From: Eledone cirrhosa | Taxonomy: Eukaryota | Assembly: GCA_964016885.1 (NCBI GenBank) | Contig: OZ024742.1 | Location: 160,084,001 to 160,148,000 of the forward strand | Length of the DNA stretch: 64,000 nt | Direction of reading: 5' to 3' | In this document: piece after piece, positions 1 through 53,612 of the stretch | Layout: each line of letters begins with the position of its first letter | Numbering within the stretch: position 1 is the stretch's first letter | Program-made: the position numbers and the translations under genes | Notes under the pieces: generated by a model | Databases searched by the model: none | What the model was told of the DNA's origin: nothing | Seen by the model: the letters and a program-made list of their open reading frames with translations, nothing else

Positions 1-289
1 TTGTGTCATCTTGTGGTCTGTCTTTTATCTGAAAATACTGTGTGATCTGGTGGTCTGTCTTTAATCTAGATACACTGTGTCATCTGGTTGTCTGTCTTTA
101 ATCAAGAGACACTGTGAGATCTGGTTGTCTGTCTTTAATCTAAAGACACTGTTTCATCTGGTGGTCTGTCTTTAATCTAGAGACACTGTGTCATCTGGTT
201 GTCTGTCTTTAATCTAAAGACACTGTGTCAACTGGTGCTCTGTCTTTAATCTAAAGACACTGTGTCATCTGACGGTCTGTCATTAATTT

Positions 290-472
290 CAGTGGATTGG
301 CAGTATCGGTAGAGGGTCGGACGCCATGCTTTGACGCATAGAGTTACGGCCCTTGCCATTCTGAGTTCAAATCCCGCCGAGGTTAACTTTGCTTTCATCC
401 TTATGGCGTCGATAAAATAAAGTACCAGTAATACACTGGATAATTGCTGGCCTTGTGCCAAAAGTAGAAACA
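290..472 (+). mobile_element. tRNA-derived SINE, young short subfamily, inserted in the satellite
   Basis: A-box-like TGGCAGTATCGG, B-box GAGTTCAAATCC, 3' end GGCCTTGTGCCAAAAGTAGAAACA. Flanked by ATTAATTT at 282-289 and 473-480. Confidence 0.9.
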
Positions 473-488
473 ATTAATTTAAAGACAC

Positions 489-673
489 GGGCGGTGGATT
501 GGCAGTATCAGTAGAGGGTCGGACGCCATGCTTTCCAGCATAGTTACGTCCCTTTACGATCTGAGTTCAAATCCCGCCGAGGTTGACTTTGCCTTTCATC
601 CTTACGGGGTCGATAAAATAAAGTACCAGTAATGCACTGGGTAATTGCTGGCCTTGTGCCTAAAGTAGAAACA
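489..673 (+). mobile_element. Second SINE copy, in tandem with the first
   Basis: Same family with a different internal variant. Flanked by 16-bp direct repeat ATTAATTTAAAGACAC at 473-488 and 674-689. Confidence 0.9.
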
Positions 674-1804
674 ATTAATTTAAAGACACTATGTGTCATC
701 TGGTGGTCTGTCTTTAATCTAAAGACAATGTGTCATCCGGTGGTCTGTCCTTAATCTAAAGATAAAATATGTCATCTGGTGGTCTGTTATTAATCTAAAG
801 ACACGATGTGTCATCTAGTAGTCTTTTATATAAAGACACTGTGTCATCTGGTTGTCTGTCTTTAATCTAAAACACTGTGTCATCTGGTGGATGTCTTTAA
901 TCTAAAGACACTGTGTCACATGGCGGTCTGACTTTAATCTATAGACACTGTGTCATCCGGTGGTCTGTCATTATCTAAAGATACAATATGTCATCTGATA
1001 ATATGTCTTTAATCTAAAGACACCGTGTCATCTGGTGGTCTATCTTTAATCTAAAGACACTGTGTCCTCTGGTAGTCTGTCTTTAATCTAAAGACATTGT
1101 GTCATCTGTTGGTCTATCTTTAACCGAAAGACACTGTGTCATCTTGTGGTCTGTCTTTAATCTAAAGATAGTCTGTCAGCTGGTAGAATTTCCTTAATCT
1201 AAAGACACTGTGTCATCTGGTAGTCTCTCTTTAATTTAATGACACTCTGTCATCTGGTAGTCTTTAATCTAAAGACATATGTCATCTGATCGTCTGCCTT
1301 TAAGCTAAAGAAAAAATGTGTCATCTGGTAGTCTGTCTTTAATCTAAAGACACTGTGTCATCTGGTGGTCTGTCTTTAATTTAAAGACACTGTCTCATCT
1401 GGTGGTCTGTCTTTAATTTAAAGACACTGTCTCATCTGGTGGTATGTCATTAATCTAAAGACGATCTGTCATGTACTGGTCTGTCTTTAATCTAAAGACA
1501 CTGTCTCATCCGGTGGTGTGTCTTTAATCTAAAGACGCGATGTGTCATCTGGTAGTCTTTTATATGAAGAAGCTTGGTCATCTGGTTGTCTGACTTTAAC
1601 TTTAATCTAAAGATACTGTGTCATCTGGTGATCTCTCTTTAATCTAAAGACACTGTGTCATATGGTGGTCTGTCTTTAATCTAAAGACACTGTGTCATCC
1701 GGTGGTCTTTCATTATCTAAAGATACAATATGTGATCTGATAGTGTGTCTTAAATCTAAAGATACTGTGTCATCTGGTAGCCTGTCTTTAATCTAAAGAT
1801 AAAG

Positions 1805-17620: not shown

Positions 17621-18800
17621 TATTCTGTCTTTAATCTAAAGACACGATGTGTCATCTGGTAGTCTTTTATATAAAGACACTGTGTCATCTGGTTGTCTGT
17701 CTTTAATCTAAAGACACTGTGTCATCTAGTGGTCTGTCTTTAATCTAAAGACACTGTGTCAGATGGCGGTCTGTCTTTAATCTAAAGACACGATGTCTCA
17801 TCTGGTAGTCTTTAATATAAAGCCACTGAGTCATCTGGTTGTCTGTCTTTAATATAAAGACACTGTGTCAACTGGTGGTCTGTCTTTAATCTAAAGACAC
17901 TGTGTCATCTGGCGTTATGTGTCATCTGGTAGCCTGTCTTTAATCTAAAAACACTTTGTCATACGGTGGTCTGTCCTTAATCTAAAGATATTGTGTCATC
18001 TGGTAGTCTATCTTTAATCGAAAGATACTGTGTCATCTCGTGGTCTGTCTTTAATCTAAAGACACTGTGTCATCTGGTAGTATCACCTTAATCTAAAGAC
18101 ACCGTTTCATCTGGTAGTCTCTCTTTAATCTAAAGACGTTGTGTCATCTGGTAGTCTGCTTTAATCTAAAGACATTGTGTCATCTGGTGGTCTGTCTTTA
18201 ATCTAAAGACACGATGTGTCATCTGGTAGTCTGTCTTTAATCGAAAGACACGATGTGTCATCTTGTGGTCTGTCTTTTATCTGAAAATACTGTGTCATCT
18301 GGTGGTCTGTCTTTAATCAAGAGACACTGTGAGATATGGTTGTTTGTCTTTAATCTAAAGACACTGTTTCATCTGGTGGTCTGTCTTTAATCTAGAGACA
18401 CTGTGTCATCTGGTTGTCTGTCTTTAATCTAAAGACACTGTTTCATCTGGTGGTCTGTCTTTAATCTAGAGACACTGTGTCATCTGGTTGTCTGTCTTTA
18501 ATCTAAAGACAATGTTTCATCTGGTGGTCTGTCTTTAATCTAAAGATACTGTACCATCTGGGAGTCTGCCTTTAATCTAAAGATACAATGTGTCATCTGA
18601 TGGTCTGTCTTTAATCTAAAGACACTGTGTCATCTGGTGTTCTATCTTAAATCTAAAGACACGATGTCTCATCTGGTAGTCTTTAATATAATGACACTGT
18701 GTCATCTGGTTGTCTGTCTTTAATCTAAATACACTGTGTCATCTGGTGCTCTGTGTTTAATCTAAAGACACTGTGTCATCTGACGGTCTGTCATTAATTT

Positions 18801-18980
18801 GTGGATTGGCAGTATCGGTAGAGGGTCGGACGCCATGCTTTCCAGCATAGTTACGTCCCTTTACGATCTGAGTTCAAATCCCGCCGAGGATGACTTTGCC
18901 TTTCATCCTTAAGGGGTCGATATAATAAAGTACCAGTAATGCACTGGATAATTGCTGGCCTTGTGCCTAAAGTAGAAACA
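18801..18980 (+). mobile_element. Third SINE copy in the satellite
   Basis: Same family. TSD ATTAATTT at 18793-18800 and 18981-18988. Confidence 0.9.
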
Positions 18981-21900
18981 ATTAATTTAAAGACACTGTG
19001 TCATCTGGTGGTCTGTCTTTAATATAAAGACACTGTGTCATCTGGTTGTCTGTCTTTAATCTAAAACACTGTGTCATCTGGTGGATGTATTTAATCTAAA
19101 GACACTGTTTCATATGGCGGTCTGACTTTAATGTAAATACACTGTGTCCTCTGGTAGTCTGTCTTTAATCTAAAGACATTGTGTCATCTGTTCGTCTGTC
19201 TTTAATCTAAAGATACTGTGTCATCTGGTAGTCTATCTTTAACCGAAAGACACTGTGTCATCTTGTGGTCTGTCTTTAATCTAAAGATACTCTGTCATCT
19301 GGTAGTATCTCCTTAATCTAAAGACACTGTGTCATCTGGTAGTCTCTCTTTAATTTAATGACACTGTGTCATCTGGTAGTCTGTCTTTAATCTAAGGACA
19401 TATGTCATCTGATAGTATGTCTTTAATCTAAAGACACTGTGTCATCTGGTTGTCTGTCTTTAATCTAAAGACACTGTGTCATCTGGTTGTCTGTCTTTGA
19501 TCTAAAGACACTGTGTCATCTGTTGGTCTGTCTTTTATCTAAAGATACTAGTATCTCCTTAATCTAAAGACACTGTGTCATCTGGTAGTCTCTCTTTATT
19601 CTAAAGACATCGTGTCAACTGATAGTCTGTCTTTAATCTAAAGACACGATGTGTCATCTGGTAGTCTGTCTTTAATCTAAAGACACGATGTGTCATCTTG
19701 TGGTCTGTCTTTTATCTGAAAATACTGTGCCATCTGGTAGTCTGCCTTTAATCTAAAGACACTGTGTCATCTGGTGGACTGGCTTTAATCTAAAGACATT
19801 GTGTCATCTGGTAGTATCTCTTTAATCTAACGACACTGTGTCATCTGGTAGTCTGTCTTTAATCTAAAGACATCTGTCATCTGGTATTCTGTCTTAAATC
19901 AAAATACACGATGTGTCATCTGGTAGTCTGTCTTTAATCTAAAGACACTCTGACATCTGGTGGTCAGTCTTTAATCTAAACACTGTGTCATCTGGTAGTA
20001 TCTCTTTAATCTAAAGACACTGTGTCATCTGTTAGTCTCTCCTTAATCTAAAGACACTGTGTCGTCTTGTGTTCTGTCATTAATCTAAAGACACTATGTG
20101 TCATCTGGTAGCCTGTCTTTAATCTAAAGACAATGTGTCATCCGGTGGTCTGACCTTAATCTAAAGATACAATGTGTCATCTGGTCTTCTGTCTGTAATC
20201 TAAAGACACAATGTGTCATCTGGTAGTCTTTTATATAAAGACACTGTGTCATATGGCGTTCTGTCTTTAATCTAAAGACACGATGTCTCATCTGGTAGTC
20301 TTCAATATAAAGCCACTGTGTCATCTGGTTGTCTGTCTTTAATCTAAAGACACTGTGTCAACTGGATGTCTTTCTTTAATCTAAAGACACTGTGTCGTCT
20401 TGTGTTCTGTCATTAATCTAAAGACACTATGTGTCATCTGGTAGCCTGTCTTTAATCTAAAGACAATGTGTCATCCGGTGGTCTGACCTTAATCTAAAGA
20501 TTCAATGTGTCATCTGGTGTTCTGTCTTTAATCTAAAGACACGATGTGTCATCTGTTGGTCTGTCTTTAATCTAAAGACACTGTGTCATATGGCGGTCTG
20601 TCTTTAATCTAAAGACACGATGTGTCATCTGTTAGTCTTTAATATAAAGCCACTGTGTCATCTGGTTGTCTGTCTTTAATATAAAGACATTGTGTCAACT
20701 GCTGGTCTGTCTTTAATCTAAAGACACTGTGTCATCTGGCGGTATGTGTCATCTGGTAGCCTGTCTTTAATCTAAAGACACTTTGTCATACGGTGGTCTG
20801 TCCTTAATCTAAAGATACTGTGTCATCTGGTAGTCTGTCTTTAACCGAAAGATACTGTGACATCGGGTGGTCTGTCTTTAATCTAAAGACACTGTGTCAT
20901 CTGGTAGTATCTCCTTAATCTAAAGACACTGTTTCATCTGGTCGTCTCACTTTAATCTAAAGACATTGTGTCATCTGGTGGTCTGTCTTTAATCTAAATA
21001 CACTGTTTCATCCAGTGGTCTGTAATTATCTAAAGATACAATATGTCATCTGATAGTATGTCCTTAATCTAAAGACACTGTGTCATCTGGTGGTCAGTCT
21101 TTAATCTAAAGACACTGTCATCTGGTGGTCTATCTTTAATCTAGAGACTCTGTGTCATCTGGTTGTCTGTCTTTAATCTAAAGACAGTGTTTCATTTGGT
21201 TGTCTGTCTTTAATCTAAAGATACTGTGCCATCTGGGAGTCTTTCTTTAATCTAAAGACACTGTGTCATACAGGGGTCTGTTCTTAATATAAAGATACAA
21301 TGTGTCATCTGATGATCTGTCTTTAATCTAAAGACACTGTGTCATCTGGTGTTCTATCTTAAATCGAAAGAGACTGTGACATCTGGTGGTCTGTCTTTTA
21401 TCTAAACACTGTCTCATCTGGTAGTCCCTCCTTAATCTAAAGACACTGTATGATCTGGTGTTCTGTCTTTAATCTAAAGACACGATGTCTCATCTGGTAG
21501 TCTTTAATATAAAGACACTGTGTCATCCGGTGGTCTGTCCTTAATCTAAAGATACAATGTGTCATCTGGTGTCCTGTCTTTAATCTAAAGACACGATGTG
21601 TTATCTGGTAGTCTTTTATATAAAGAAGCTTGGTCATATGGCGGTCTGTCTTTAATCTATAGACACTGTGTCATCCGGTGGTCTGTCATTATCTAAAGAT
21701 ACAATATGTCATCTGATAGTATGTTTTTAATCTAAAGACACTGTGTCATCTGGTTGTCTGTCTTTAATATAGAGACACTGTGTCATCTGGTGGTCTGTCT
21801 TTAATCTAAAGATACTGTGCCATGTGGTAGTCTGCCTTTAATCTAAAGACACTATGTAATCTGGTTGTCTGTCTTTAATCTAAAAATACTGTGTCATATG

Positions 21901-40642: not shown

Positions 40643-40878
<236 letters not shown>

Positions 40879-41146: not shown

Positions 41147-41268
41147 AGCTCGACGCTTTTTTGACATCTCATCAGATATGCGAGCTTATATATGCAAAAC
41201 TGAGTTTAGATGTGTCATTGCACATATAAGCTCGCATATCTGATGAGATGTCGAAAAAGAGTCGGGCT
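41147..41268. repeat. Short inverted repeat, ~50-bp arms
   Basis: GACATCTCATCAGATATGCGAGCTTATAT...ATATAAGCTCGCATATCTGATGAGATGTC. Confidence 0.85.
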
Positions 41269-50272: not shown

Positions 50273-50274
<2 letters not shown>

Positions 50275-50813
50275 GTGGGAAAGTAAAAAATCGGAGAATA
50301 GACCGTTAAAACATGTTTATTTAAAACAGTACCTACGTACGTTTCGCCCAGTTGGGCTTCTCAAGGGCATAAATAATCACAAGTTTTCCTTATATTGCTC
50401 GGAAACAGTTTTTGGGGTTAAATCCACATCAAGGCTCATTGCTCGCAAAAATATCTTGTTTTGATTTTGCAGCAGGTCAAGGGAGGTAACTCTGGCCGGT
50501 GTTAGGGCAGTCTTTCCCGGACAATTTTTTTTTTTTTTTTTTGCCGCAAAAAAAAAAAAAATTGTCCGGGAAAGACTGCCCTAACACCGGCCAGAGTTAC
50601 CTCCCTTGACCTGCTGCAAAATCAAAACAAGATATTTTTGCGAGCAATGAGCCTTGATGTGGATTTAACCCCAAAAACTCTTTCCGAGCAATATAAGGAA
50701 AACTTGTGATTATTTATGCCCTTGAGAAGCCCAACTGGGCGAAACGTACGTAGGTGCTGTTTTAAATAAACATGTTTTAACGGTCTATTCTCCGATTTTT
50801 TACTTTCCCACGT
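50273..50813. repeat. ~540-bp near-perfect palindrome with variant hammerhead motifs in both arms
   Basis: ~270-bp arms centred on T-run/GCCGC/A-run at ~50545. Plus-arm motif at 50716-50756. Confidence 0.95.
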
Positions 50814-50974
50814 GCTTACGCTCTGCTAACTCTCTAGCCCACTAAATATTAACACTTCGAATATTTAATACTGTCGGCACTAGTATCGAGCACCTTTGGC
50901 ATACGCTACTTGGCAAATAACCATATGTATCACCTATCCCCCCTTTTTTTCCTCTTTCTCGATACGTAAATACT

Positions 50975-51167
50975 ATATATATATATATATGTATATTTAT
51001 ATATATATATGTATATATATATATGTATATATATATATATGTATATATATATATGTATATATATGTATATATATATATGTGCATATATATATATGTATAT
51101 ATATATATGTGTGTATATATATATATATGTATATATATGTATATATATATATGTATATATATATGTG

Positions 51168-51260
<93 letters not shown>
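50975..51260. repeat. (TA)n-type microsatellite
   Basis: Seen directly. Confidence 0.97.
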
Positions 51261-51263
<3 letters not shown>

Positions 51264-51317
51264 AATTAATAAAGTAATGAATAAACAAAGAAACAGTTCC
51301 TTATATTAAAAAAATTC

Positions 51318-51455
51318 ATCATTTTACGATCGTTTCTAGGATATATATGTGTTAGTGTTGGTATGCATATTCTATAGATCTATGTAAAATATTTATACAA
51401 ACTATCAGAGGGAATATACATACCTACACATATATATGCTGTCTTCAGAAATAAT
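51318..51455 (-). ncRNA. Hammerhead-like motif with a greatly extended stem II
   Basis: Minus strand attattt-CTGAAGA-[~105-nt self-complementary segment]-GAAAC-gatc-GTA-aaatgat. Confidence 0.6.
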
Positions 51456-51533
51456 TGTTTCTACTTTAGGCACAAGGCCAGCAATTACCCAGTGCATTAC
51501 TGGTACTTTATTTTATCGACCCCGTAAGGATGA
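51456..51533 (-). mobile_element. SINE 3' fragment (young subfamily) in the left palindrome arm
   Basis: TCATCCTTACGGGGTCGATAAAATAAAGTACC...GTAGAAACA on the minus strand, joined through TCAT microhomology. Confidence 0.9.
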
Positions 51534-51792
51534 TATTTGTTTATTGAAAAGACAAAGATTTAATACAATAGGTCTGTTTGGGAACAGGTCTTGAATTGAC
51601 CAATAGAAAGAAAGTGAAGGTCAAGATAGCAATCTAGTAGTAAGAGAACCTAAATTAAGGTTCTCTTACTACTAGATTGCTATCTTGACCTTCACTTTCT
51701 TTCTATTGGTCAATTCAAAACCTGTTCCCAAACAGACCTATTGTATTAAATCTTTGTCTTTTCAATAAACAAATATCATTATTTCTGAAGAC

Positions 51793-51974
51793 GTGGATTG
51801 GCAGTATTGGGAGAGGGTCGGACGCCATGCTTTGACGTATAGAGTTACGGCCCTTGCCATTCTGAGTTCAAATACCGCTGAGGTTAACTTTGCCTTTCAT
51901 CCTTACGGGGTCGATAAAATAAAGTACCAGTAATGCACTGGTTAATTGCTGGCCTTGTGCCTAACGTAGAAACA
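51793..51974 (+). mobile_element. Near-full-length young SINE in the right palindrome arm
   Basis: 15-bp TSD ATTATTTCTGAAGAC at 51778-51792 and 51975-51989. Confidence 0.93.
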
Positions 51975-52271
51975 ATTATTTCTGAAGACAGCATATATAT
52001 GTGTAGGTATGTATATTCCCTCTGATAGTTTGTATAAATATTTTACCAACACTAACACATATATATCCTAGATCGTAAAATGATGAATTTTTTTAATATA
52101 AGGAACTGTTTCTTTGTTTATTCATTACTTTATTAATTTATCTTGACTCTGTTTTCCGTTAATTTTCACCGAAAATAGTTTTTGAATGCATCTTCTCTTT
52201 TCATGATATCTGGATTACATTGAGTTCTTCATACGGATTGGACACTACCGTAAATTTTTGGTAGATTTATC

Positions 52272-53612
<1,341 letters not shown>

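What the first reader, a model, noticed from the sequence alone, without database searches (positions are those of the whole stretch)
51261..52141. Palindrome with SINE sequence at mirror-identical positions, exactly at the hammerhead core
Seen: the right arm has a near-full SINE with TSD ATTATTTCTGAAGAC, which is hammerhead stem I plus the CTGAAGA core. The left arm has only the last 78 bp of the SINE at the same nucleotide, joined by TCAT microhomology, and differs at 2 sites. The right arm has lost exactly GAAAC and ~22 bp of stem II, while the left-arm motif stays complete. Inference: either two independent hits on one target, or insertion before fold-back formation followed by deletion, or arm-to-arm conversion. 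The layout puts a Pol III promoter directly upstream of a ribozyme motif.
Basis: partly seen in the sequence, partly recalled or inferred. Interest (0 to 1): 0.72.

Follow-up and report, generated by a model that had tools for sequence, protein, structure and literature searches.

The report
SINE hotspot in Penelope hammerhead stem
This palindrome is the cut-down, mirrored end of a Penelope-like jumping gene whose hammerhead stem holds the favourite landing sequence of a very common SINE, filled in about one in five copies across the genome, so the two mirror-placed SINEs are likely two separate, ordinary insertions and not a new promoter-ribozyme device.

Summary
The anatomy is real. The palindrome is a 5'-truncated Penelope-like element (PLE, Neptune-like ORF) with an inverted copy, sitting in (TA)n, with a type I hammerhead motif in each arm. 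The mirror position is no coincidence of this locus. The SINE lands at C|ATTAT sites genome-wide, and stem I starts with C|ATTATTT. That base is SINE-filled in 408 copies and empty in 1406. Among 71 filled sites there are 61 different 5' junctions, duplications of 0-19 bp, and frequent re-insertions: recurrent target-primed insertion. Here the two SINE pieces differ at two common SINE alleles, and the closest PLE relative is empty, so two independent hits are most likely (about 0.75). The promoter-ribozyme layout fails at this locus. The near-full SINE has a B-box mismatch and precedes the broken hammerhead; the intact hammerhead follows a promoterless fragment. Unexplained: the site is about ten times fuller than the same 9-mer in the element's ORF (22% vs 2.3%). 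Reads could not test the assembly.

The parts
50974..51263 (.). (TA)n array, left flank (PLE target)
   Evidence: TRF
51264..51651 (-). Inverted, 5'-truncated copy of the PLE 3' repeat (pLTR), no tail
   Evidence: 99-100% identical to many dispersed copies, 724 candidates
51316..51455 (-). Left-arm type I hammerhead motif, complete: stem I 51449-51455 paired with 51318-51324; CUGAAGA 51442-51448; long stem II; GAAAC-GAUC-GUA 51325-51336; predicted cut between 51325 and 51324
   Evidence: sequence; constrained fold -30.3 vs MFE -33.8 kcal/mol; pair counts; cleavage untested
51456..51533 (-). 5'-truncated SINE (last 76 bp plus TCAT overlap), commonest tail haplotype, no promoter boxes
   Evidence: junction unique in the genome
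51652..51657 (.). 6-nt loop at the centre; T51651 and A51658 pair (likely fold-back priming point)
   Evidence: comparison with relatives L116, L119, L120; mechanism inferred
51651..52141 (+). 5'-truncated sense copy of the PLE 3' repeat
51778..51792 (+). Upstream 15-bp target-site duplication
   Evidence: sequence
51793..51974 (+). Near-full SINE, 182 bp, lacking the first few bases seen in other copies; B-box-like word at 51866 with 1 mismatch
   Evidence: 153,747 exact matches to a 25-nt tail pattern genome-wide
51975..52086 (+). Downstream duplication plus broken hammerhead: 23-bp deletion after 52046, 5-bp deletion at about 52070-52073 that removes G12-A13-A14
   Evidence: the 5-bp join recurs once elsewhere
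52142..52277 (+). One-sided tail (element sequence that in tandem copies leads on towards the ORF), about 135 bp
   Evidence: L080, L081, L079
52275..53592 (.). (TA)n array, right flank
   Evidence: TRF

Best explanation
A truncated Penelope-like element lies here in a (TA)n array as a sense copy plus an inverted copy, and two different copies of an abundant SINE likely inserted later and separately, one in each arm, at the same C|ATTATTT word that begins hammerhead stem I. Shown: the PLE family identity, the SINE's genome-wide preference for C|ATTAT, 22% filling of this base across copies, and varied 5' junctions and duplications. Inferred: the inverted arm was made from the same template at integration, likely by the cDNA folding back over a 6-nt loop. 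A LINE enzyme (RTE-like by recall, partner not identified) would nick at C|ATT, and the SINE RNA tail ending in AUUAUU would anneal there and prime. That fixes the 3' junction and leaves the 5' end variable: near-full with a 15-bp duplication on the right, truncated and joined by TCAT on the left. The two right-arm deletions are likely later slippage between short repeats beside small palindromes. The locus is predicted to be inert debris.
For: PLE: long copies carry an RT ... CxC ... GIY-YIG frame (L082, 612 aa; Atlas first hits 0.96-0.98 with RVT_1/GIY-YIG shares 21-49%; Pfam itself found 0 families for L082), inverted ends and a one-sided tail, as described in PMC8557442 (passages) and PMC4209133. 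Target rule: in 67 reconstructed non-PLE sites, +1..+5 are ATTAT at 93-100% per position and -1 is C in 66%. Recurrence: 408 filled vs 1406 empty; 61 distinct 5' 30-mers in 71 filled sites, duplication match 0-19 bp; 14 of 70 sites hold more than one SINE, about the same rate as first hits. On C1 (78 of the 80 listed filled sites fetched), inverted pairs with at least one SINE were 19 one-arm and 9 both-arm. This locus: the left tail equals the commonest haplotype (5 of 77 other tails identical). Both differences are among only 12 of 228 possible changes that reach 5% in 79 tails. Flanks differ by just 1 substitution in 277 aligned bases. The PLE variants shared by both arms also mark L120, which is empty at the site, and L119, which holds a different SINE. 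Near-zero duplications are common (12 of 71 at 3 bp or less).
Against: Both-arm pairs exceed independence: 8 of 27 vs 3.4 expected, p=0.016, with L073 dropped as a duplicate of L072. Up to 3 of those 8 look copied, not independent: L072 has the same junction in both arms, L085 folds back inside the SINE, and L075 has different junctions but an identical tail haplotype seen only there. The copied pair L072 also differs at 2 of the last 76 bases, so 2 differences alone prove nothing. A microhomology deletion would give the same TCAT join, and this locus has two other such deletions. Sequence context does not fully explain the hotspot: the same 9-mer in the ORF is filled in 21 of 907 and a second C|ATTATTT in the repeat in 0 of 76. 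The -3 base test was not significant (12 of 23 vs 6 of 23, p=0.13).
Confidence: 0.75

Rival explanations
1. One SINE inserted after integration, was copied to the other arm by arm-to-arm conversion or hairpin repair, and the left copy then lost its 5' part by a TCAT microhomology deletion.
For: Both-arm pairs are in excess (8 of 27 vs 3.4). L075 shares a private SINE tail between arms despite different 5' junctions, and L072 shares a junction. The loop is only 6 nt, and two other microhomology deletions are present.
Against: It needs two transversions in 76 bp, both onto common SINE alleles (12 of 228 possible changes), against 1 substitution in 277 flank bases. The two right-arm deletions and the 51590 change were not copied across.
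Confidence: 0.14
2. The SINE was already in the source PLE copy, was duplicated when the inverted arm formed, and was then deleted in part on the left.
For: It happens in the family: L085 folds back inside a SINE, and L072/L073 carry one junction in both arms. The arms share rare PLE variants, so they come from one template.
Against: The closest relatives by those variants are empty (L120) or hold a different SINE (L119). The right-arm tail haplotype was found at 0 of 77 other filled sites. The same two-allele problem applies.
Confidence: 0.07
3. The hotspot is made by more than sequence, for example the stem II hairpin extruding in DNA, PLE endonuclease nicks, or template switching onto SINE RNA during PLE reverse transcription. 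This concerns the cause of the hotspot and can be true together with two independent hits.
For: 22.5% filling vs 2.3% at the same 9-mer in the ORF, 0 of 76 at a second site, and an estimated 8-15% background for CATTATTTCT. Several short copies fold back or end at this same word (L007, L016, L021, L022, L027; sample biased by the query).
Against: A sister family with the same hammerhead fold made up 12 of 40 sampled unfilled sites and 0 of 62 filled sites, though it looks younger (mean pairwise identity 96.6%, n=9, vs 90.6%, n=40). A weight matrix built without this site ranks the three sites in the observed order, 7.3, 4.9 and -1.9 bits (n=60, background includes PLE copies). Duplication lengths resemble those elsewhere.
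Confidence: 0.2
4. The structure is an assembly or read artefact of a palindrome.
For: Palindromes are hard to sequence and assemble (established knowledge; PMC8557442 passage notes assembly problems).
Against: The arms differ in SINE alleles, junction and deletions in ways a mirrored read would not produce. Each feature has counterparts at other loci.
Confidence: 0.04

Closest known systems
EN+ Penelope-like elements, Neptune-type (PMC8557442, passages read; PMC11167929, first of four parts read)
   Same: RT followed by a C-terminal GIY-YIG domain with a Cys motif before it; 5' truncation; an inverted 5'-truncated copy; one-sided tail; (TA)n target; hammerhead in the 3' repeat.
   Different: The tail is about 135 bp against the 30-40 bp described. 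Clade placement is by motif reading and Atlas neighbours, with no tree built.
Type I hammerheads of metazoan PLE pLTRs (PMC4209133, first of four parts and passages read)
   Same: CUGANGA and GAAA core, 2-bp stem III with a palindromic tetraloop, NUH cut triplet, enlarged stem II; pairs on opposite strands 100-700 bp apart in truncated PLEs are reported there.
   Different: Stem II closes about 105 nt and begins with a fixed C-A mismatch (144 of 146 copies, 11 of 11 sister copies). No Rfam match. Activity untested.
Parallel SINE insertion at hotspots, e.g. CanSINEs in cats (PMC4084570, passages read)
   Same: Independent insertions at one site with different, overlapping duplications, driven by a target motif.
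   Different: Here the hotspot lies inside another retroelement and is hit in at least 408 paralogous copies of one genome, with frequent re-insertion.
Non-LTR retrozymes (10.64898/2026.07.22.740005, first of five parts read)
   Same: Non-coding PLE-derived sequence with a type I hammerhead.
   Different: Not a tandem array of hammerhead units; this is an inverted truncation product of a coding family.

Membership tests
EN+ Penelope-like element (Neptune-type) | [quoted passage not shown] | tested here: met
   L082 frame of 612 aa with RT-type and Cys/YIG motifs read by eye (motif names recalled); Atlas hits 0.95-0.98 carry RVT_1 and GIY-YIG in 21-49% of members; Pfam scan found none for L082 and no relevant family for the other two frames. 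The window copy itself has no ORF.
EN+ Penelope-like element (Neptune-type) | pLTR in tandem or inverted arrangement with a one-sided tail | tested here: met
   Inverted ends in L071-L079, L082 and L084, direct in L080 and L081, tail on one end
EN+ Penelope-like element (Neptune-type) | Insertion into (TA)n | tested here: met
   Both flanks; tail-less ends of relatives run into TA
EN+ Penelope-like element (Neptune-type) | RT phylogeny places it in Neptune | not tested
   No tree built
Type I hammerhead ribozyme | Core CUGANGA, GAAA and NUH | tested here: met
   Left arm complete; 157 of 176 copies matched the GAAAC-GAUC-GU pattern in the expected window (most of the 19 misses are the upstream diverged repeat, shifted or cut-off copies), triplet GUA 141 and GUU 11. 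Not met in the right arm.
Type I hammerhead ribozyme | Three stems closing the core | tested here: inconclusive
   Stems I and II are supported (U-A/U-G exchange at stem I pairs 5 and 6; A-U to G-C in 5 of 11 sister copies), but pair 10.1-11.1 is C-A. The hammerhead fold is 1.7-3.5 kcal/mol above the MFE. The SINE shortens stem I from 9 to 7 pairs.
Type I hammerhead ribozyme | Self-cleavage | not testable with these tools
   Needs an in vitro assay, as monomer and as dimer
tRNA-derived SINE inserted by target-primed reverse transcription | Short, high copy, fixed 3' end, variable 5' end, target duplication | tested here: met
tRNA-derived SINE inserted by target-primed reverse transcription | Internal Pol III A and B boxes, tRNA-related head | tested here: inconclusive
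   B-box-like word with 1 mismatch in this copy and no A-box match at 1 mismatch; exact B box in many other copies; ARAGORN found 0 genes
tRNA-derived SINE inserted by target-primed reverse transcription | 3' end shared with a partner LINE | not tested
   Partner not searched for
Non-LTR retrozyme | Tandem units each with a complete hammerhead | tested here: not met
   The two motifs are on opposite strands and one is broken; the upstream repeat in long copies has a degenerate core

The most novel reading that the evidence does not exclude
The hammerhead of this PLE is a true SINE trap, about ten times hotter than its sequence word alone, so that SINE promoters sit directly ahead of intact ribozymes at roughly 190 loci (38 of 83 sampled, scaled to 408). 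At some 60 of these (13 of 83) no T4 stop precedes the cut site, which would give Pol III read-through RNAs that end by self-cleavage or at the T-run just after stem I. The SINE would thereby silence or rewire its host element. This window's copy would be a dead example.
Probability: 0.1. Interest if true: 0.6.

Novelty: new member of a known kind. Interest (0 to 1): 0.27.

Why it matters
The locus itself is ordinary transposon debris. The family-level result is useful: one base of one element has been hit independently hundreds of times. That gives a natural experiment on SINE target choice and 5'-junction formation, and it warns that same-site SINEs in this genome are not evidence of common descent. 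If read-through from these SINEs into intact hammerheads were shown, it would be a new way for one retroelement to modify another. The eight literature searches run listed no title or abstract opening on a SINE hotspot in a PLE hammerhead; the library lacks most subscription papers.

Tried and rejected
Rfam scan: only sub-threshold miRNA-type hits on palindromes and TA runs, no hammerhead. Pfam on three ORFs: nothing relevant. Phage tblastn: no match. ARAGORN: 0 genes. Sequencing runs: no RNA holder listed, which says nothing about expression. Contigs of X1, X2, X3 and X6 and raw reads of X21 were too short or came from other copies. None bridged the centre or the left junction, and 51596-51700 had no cover, so the assembly and allele state remain untested. 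Single-master origin of all filled copies: rejected by 61 of 71 distinct junctions. A PLE sub-lineage carrying this SINE: rejected by L119 and L120. SINE-hammerhead retrocopies ending at GTA: none in 83. SINE insertion as the cause of core loss: not supported, since small core deletions were seen in 3 copies, 2 filled and 1 empty, and the 23-bp join in 0 of 163 others. A simple -3 base rule for the hotspot: right direction, not significant. Earlier-finding look-ups by sequence and by words returned nothing. No supplementary files were read.

Full report
1. Observation. Aligning the arms confirms the description. The right arm has a 182-bp SINE (51793-51974) between 15-bp duplications. The left arm has the last 76 bp (78 with the TCAT overlap), with its 3' end on the same base. 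The pieces differ at two sites. Outside the SINE the arms differ by one substitution in 277 aligned bases and two right-arm deletions. The deletions are 23 bp between TAC repeats and 5 bp between two GA; the latter can be placed three ways. The arms meet at a 6-nt loop. The element continues to about 52277 as a one-sided tail and lies between two (TA)n arrays.

2. What the palindrome is. The arm is a dispersed repeat (724 candidates, best copies 99-100% identical). Long copies show inverted or direct ends around an ORF. The L082 frame reads RT, then a Cys motif and a GIY-YIG-type end (motif names recalled). The Atlas places it with RT/GIY-YIG clusters, commonest taxon Mollusca, while Pfam found no family for it. 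Inverted 5'-truncated copies, one-sided tails and TA bias are described for PLEs (PMC8557442, passages; PMC11167929, part 1 of 4). Opposite-strand hammerhead pairs 100-700 bp apart in truncated PLEs are reported in PMC4209133 (part 1 of 4; passages).

3. The hammerhead. The core letters are present in the left arm. A constrained type I fold costs 3.5 kcal/mol over the MFE there and 1.7 in an empty copy. Across 157 copies with a located core (of 176), stem I pairs 5 and 6 vary mostly between U-A and U-G. A sister family shows an A-U to G-C change in stem II (5 of 11) and a GUU triplet. Against this, pair 10.1-11.1 is C-A in both families, stem II closes about 105 nt, and Rfam gave no match. It is a plausible atypical PLE hammerhead; cleavage is untested.

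4. Why the SINE sits there. The SINE is very common (153,747 exact matches to a 25-nt tail pattern). In 67 reconstructed sites outside this hammerhead site, the duplication starts ATTAT and is preceded by C in 66%. Stem I of the hammerhead begins with exactly this word. Genome-wide the site is filled in 408 exact matches and empty in 1406. I examined 78 of the 80 filled sites listed for C1, plus one C2 pair and the window. Of 71 sites with a readable 5' junction, 61 have distinct 30-mers and the duplication match runs from 0 to 19 bp. Of 70 sites, 14 hold two or more SINEs. This is repeated independent insertion, not one master copy. Parallel SINE insertions at hotspots are known (PMC4084570, passages).

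5. One hit or two here. On C1, inverted pairs with at least one SINE were 19 one-arm and 9 both-arm (after removing two false pairs with the upstream diverged repeat and one double row). With L073 dropped as a duplicate, 8 of 27 both-arm pairs exceed the 3.4 expected (p=0.016). Up to three of the eight look copied: L072, L085 and L075. So copying is real in this family, and the copied pair L072 also differs at 2 of 76 tail bases. For this locus the evidence favours two hits. The left tail is the commonest haplotype (5 of 77 others identical; the right tail 0 of 77), and both differences fall among the 12 of 228 changes that reach 5% in 79 tails. The rare PLE variants shared by the two arms occur at only five places for the pattern tested. 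Two are these arms; L120 is empty at the site, L119 has a different SINE, and L116, which shares fewer of the variants, has yet another junction. The TCAT join is unique in the genome, as most junctions are, and duplications of 3 bp or less make up 12 of 71. I put two independent hits at 0.75, conversion at 0.14, insertion before fold-back at 0.07 and artefact at 0.04.

6. What is not explained. The background filling of CATTATTTCT is an estimate from 25,035 sites and 4,483 filled junctions: 8-9% with the measured share of C-preceded targets, 23 of 44, or 10-15% with assumed shares. Within the same element, the same 9-mer in the ORF (antisense) is filled in 21 of 907 and a second site in the repeat in 0 of 76. 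The hammerhead site is therefore about twice background and ten times the ORF site. A matrix built without this site ranks the three in the observed order, but it is small and its background holds PLE copies. The three cold sites have T at -3 and the hot one A, yet the direct test was not significant (p=0.13). A sister family with the same fold was 12 of 40 sampled unfilled sites and 0 of 62 filled. That argues against the fold as the cause, but the two samples cover different spans of C1 and the sister family looks younger.

7. Promoter and ribozyme. At this locus the near-full SINE has a mismatch in its B box and a T4 run follows before the core; the core has lost G12-A13-A14. The intact motif follows a fragment without the B box. 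Elsewhere, 38 of 83 filled sites combine a near-full SINE, an exact B box and an intact core, and 13 of these have no T4 before the cut site. None of the 83 ends at the cut site. The 5-bp core deletion recurs once genome-wide and a 4-bp version once in my sample, in an empty copy. An earlier unchecked note (e1-10343661) reports recurrent small deletions at a hammerhead cut site in another family; the deletions here lie a few bases 5' of the cut and fit slippage as well.

8. Verdict. A new member of known kinds: a PLE inverted insertion plus a SINE target hotspot. Interest 0.27. The novel case, a true SINE trap that makes Pol III-driven self-cleaving RNAs at other copies, has probability about 0.1 and interest 0.6. 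Other papers seen: 10.64898/2026.07.22.740005 (part 1 of 5), PMC4758252 and PMC13282606 (passages); none describes this site in what I read. The assembly and allele state could not be tested.

Noticed in passing
window 50274-50812: A second palindrome 450 bp upstream (4 mismatches in 267 bp), a different dispersed family (1942 candidates), with a compact hammerhead-like motif whose core reads UUGAGAA, like the U3-A8 variant described in PMC4209133; likely another PLE end in (TA)n.
   Followed up: partly
window 279-689 and 18790-18995: Within the 37-bp satellite (2-33090) the same SINE sits only at a rare unit variant: 2 of 5 GTCATTAATTT units are filled (one twice in tandem), 0 of 30 GTCATTAATCT.
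   Followed up: partly
L250-L254, L264, L265, L268, L278, L280, L283, L285: Sister PLE family with the same long-stem hammerhead, a GUU triplet and a compensatory pair; not seen filled by the SINE in my sample.
   Followed up: partly
L085 (G000:C1:374827800-374830000): Fold-back whose centre lies inside the SINE, showing that a SINE-bearing copy can be the template of an inverted insertion.
   Followed up: partly
L075 (G000:C1:17713800-17720800): Arms 4.8 kb apart share a private SINE tail but have different 5' junctions, a likely arm-to-arm conversion.
   Followed up: partly
L007, L016, L021, L022, L027: Short copies whose fold-back centre or 5' end falls at or beside the same ATTAT word at the start of stem I; the sample is biased by the query's end.
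   Followed up: no
L082:5270-5430: A diverged second copy of the 3' repeat about 235 bp upstream, with a degenerate hammerhead start; in the L072 and L146 subfamilies it keeps the target word.
   Followed up: no
window 40773-40859 and 41155-41260: Two further short inverted repeats, seen only as sub-threshold Rfam miRNA hits.
   Followed up: no
L072 and L073 (C1, about 339 kb apart): Near-identical elements with near-identical flanks, likely a segmental duplication.
   Followed up: no
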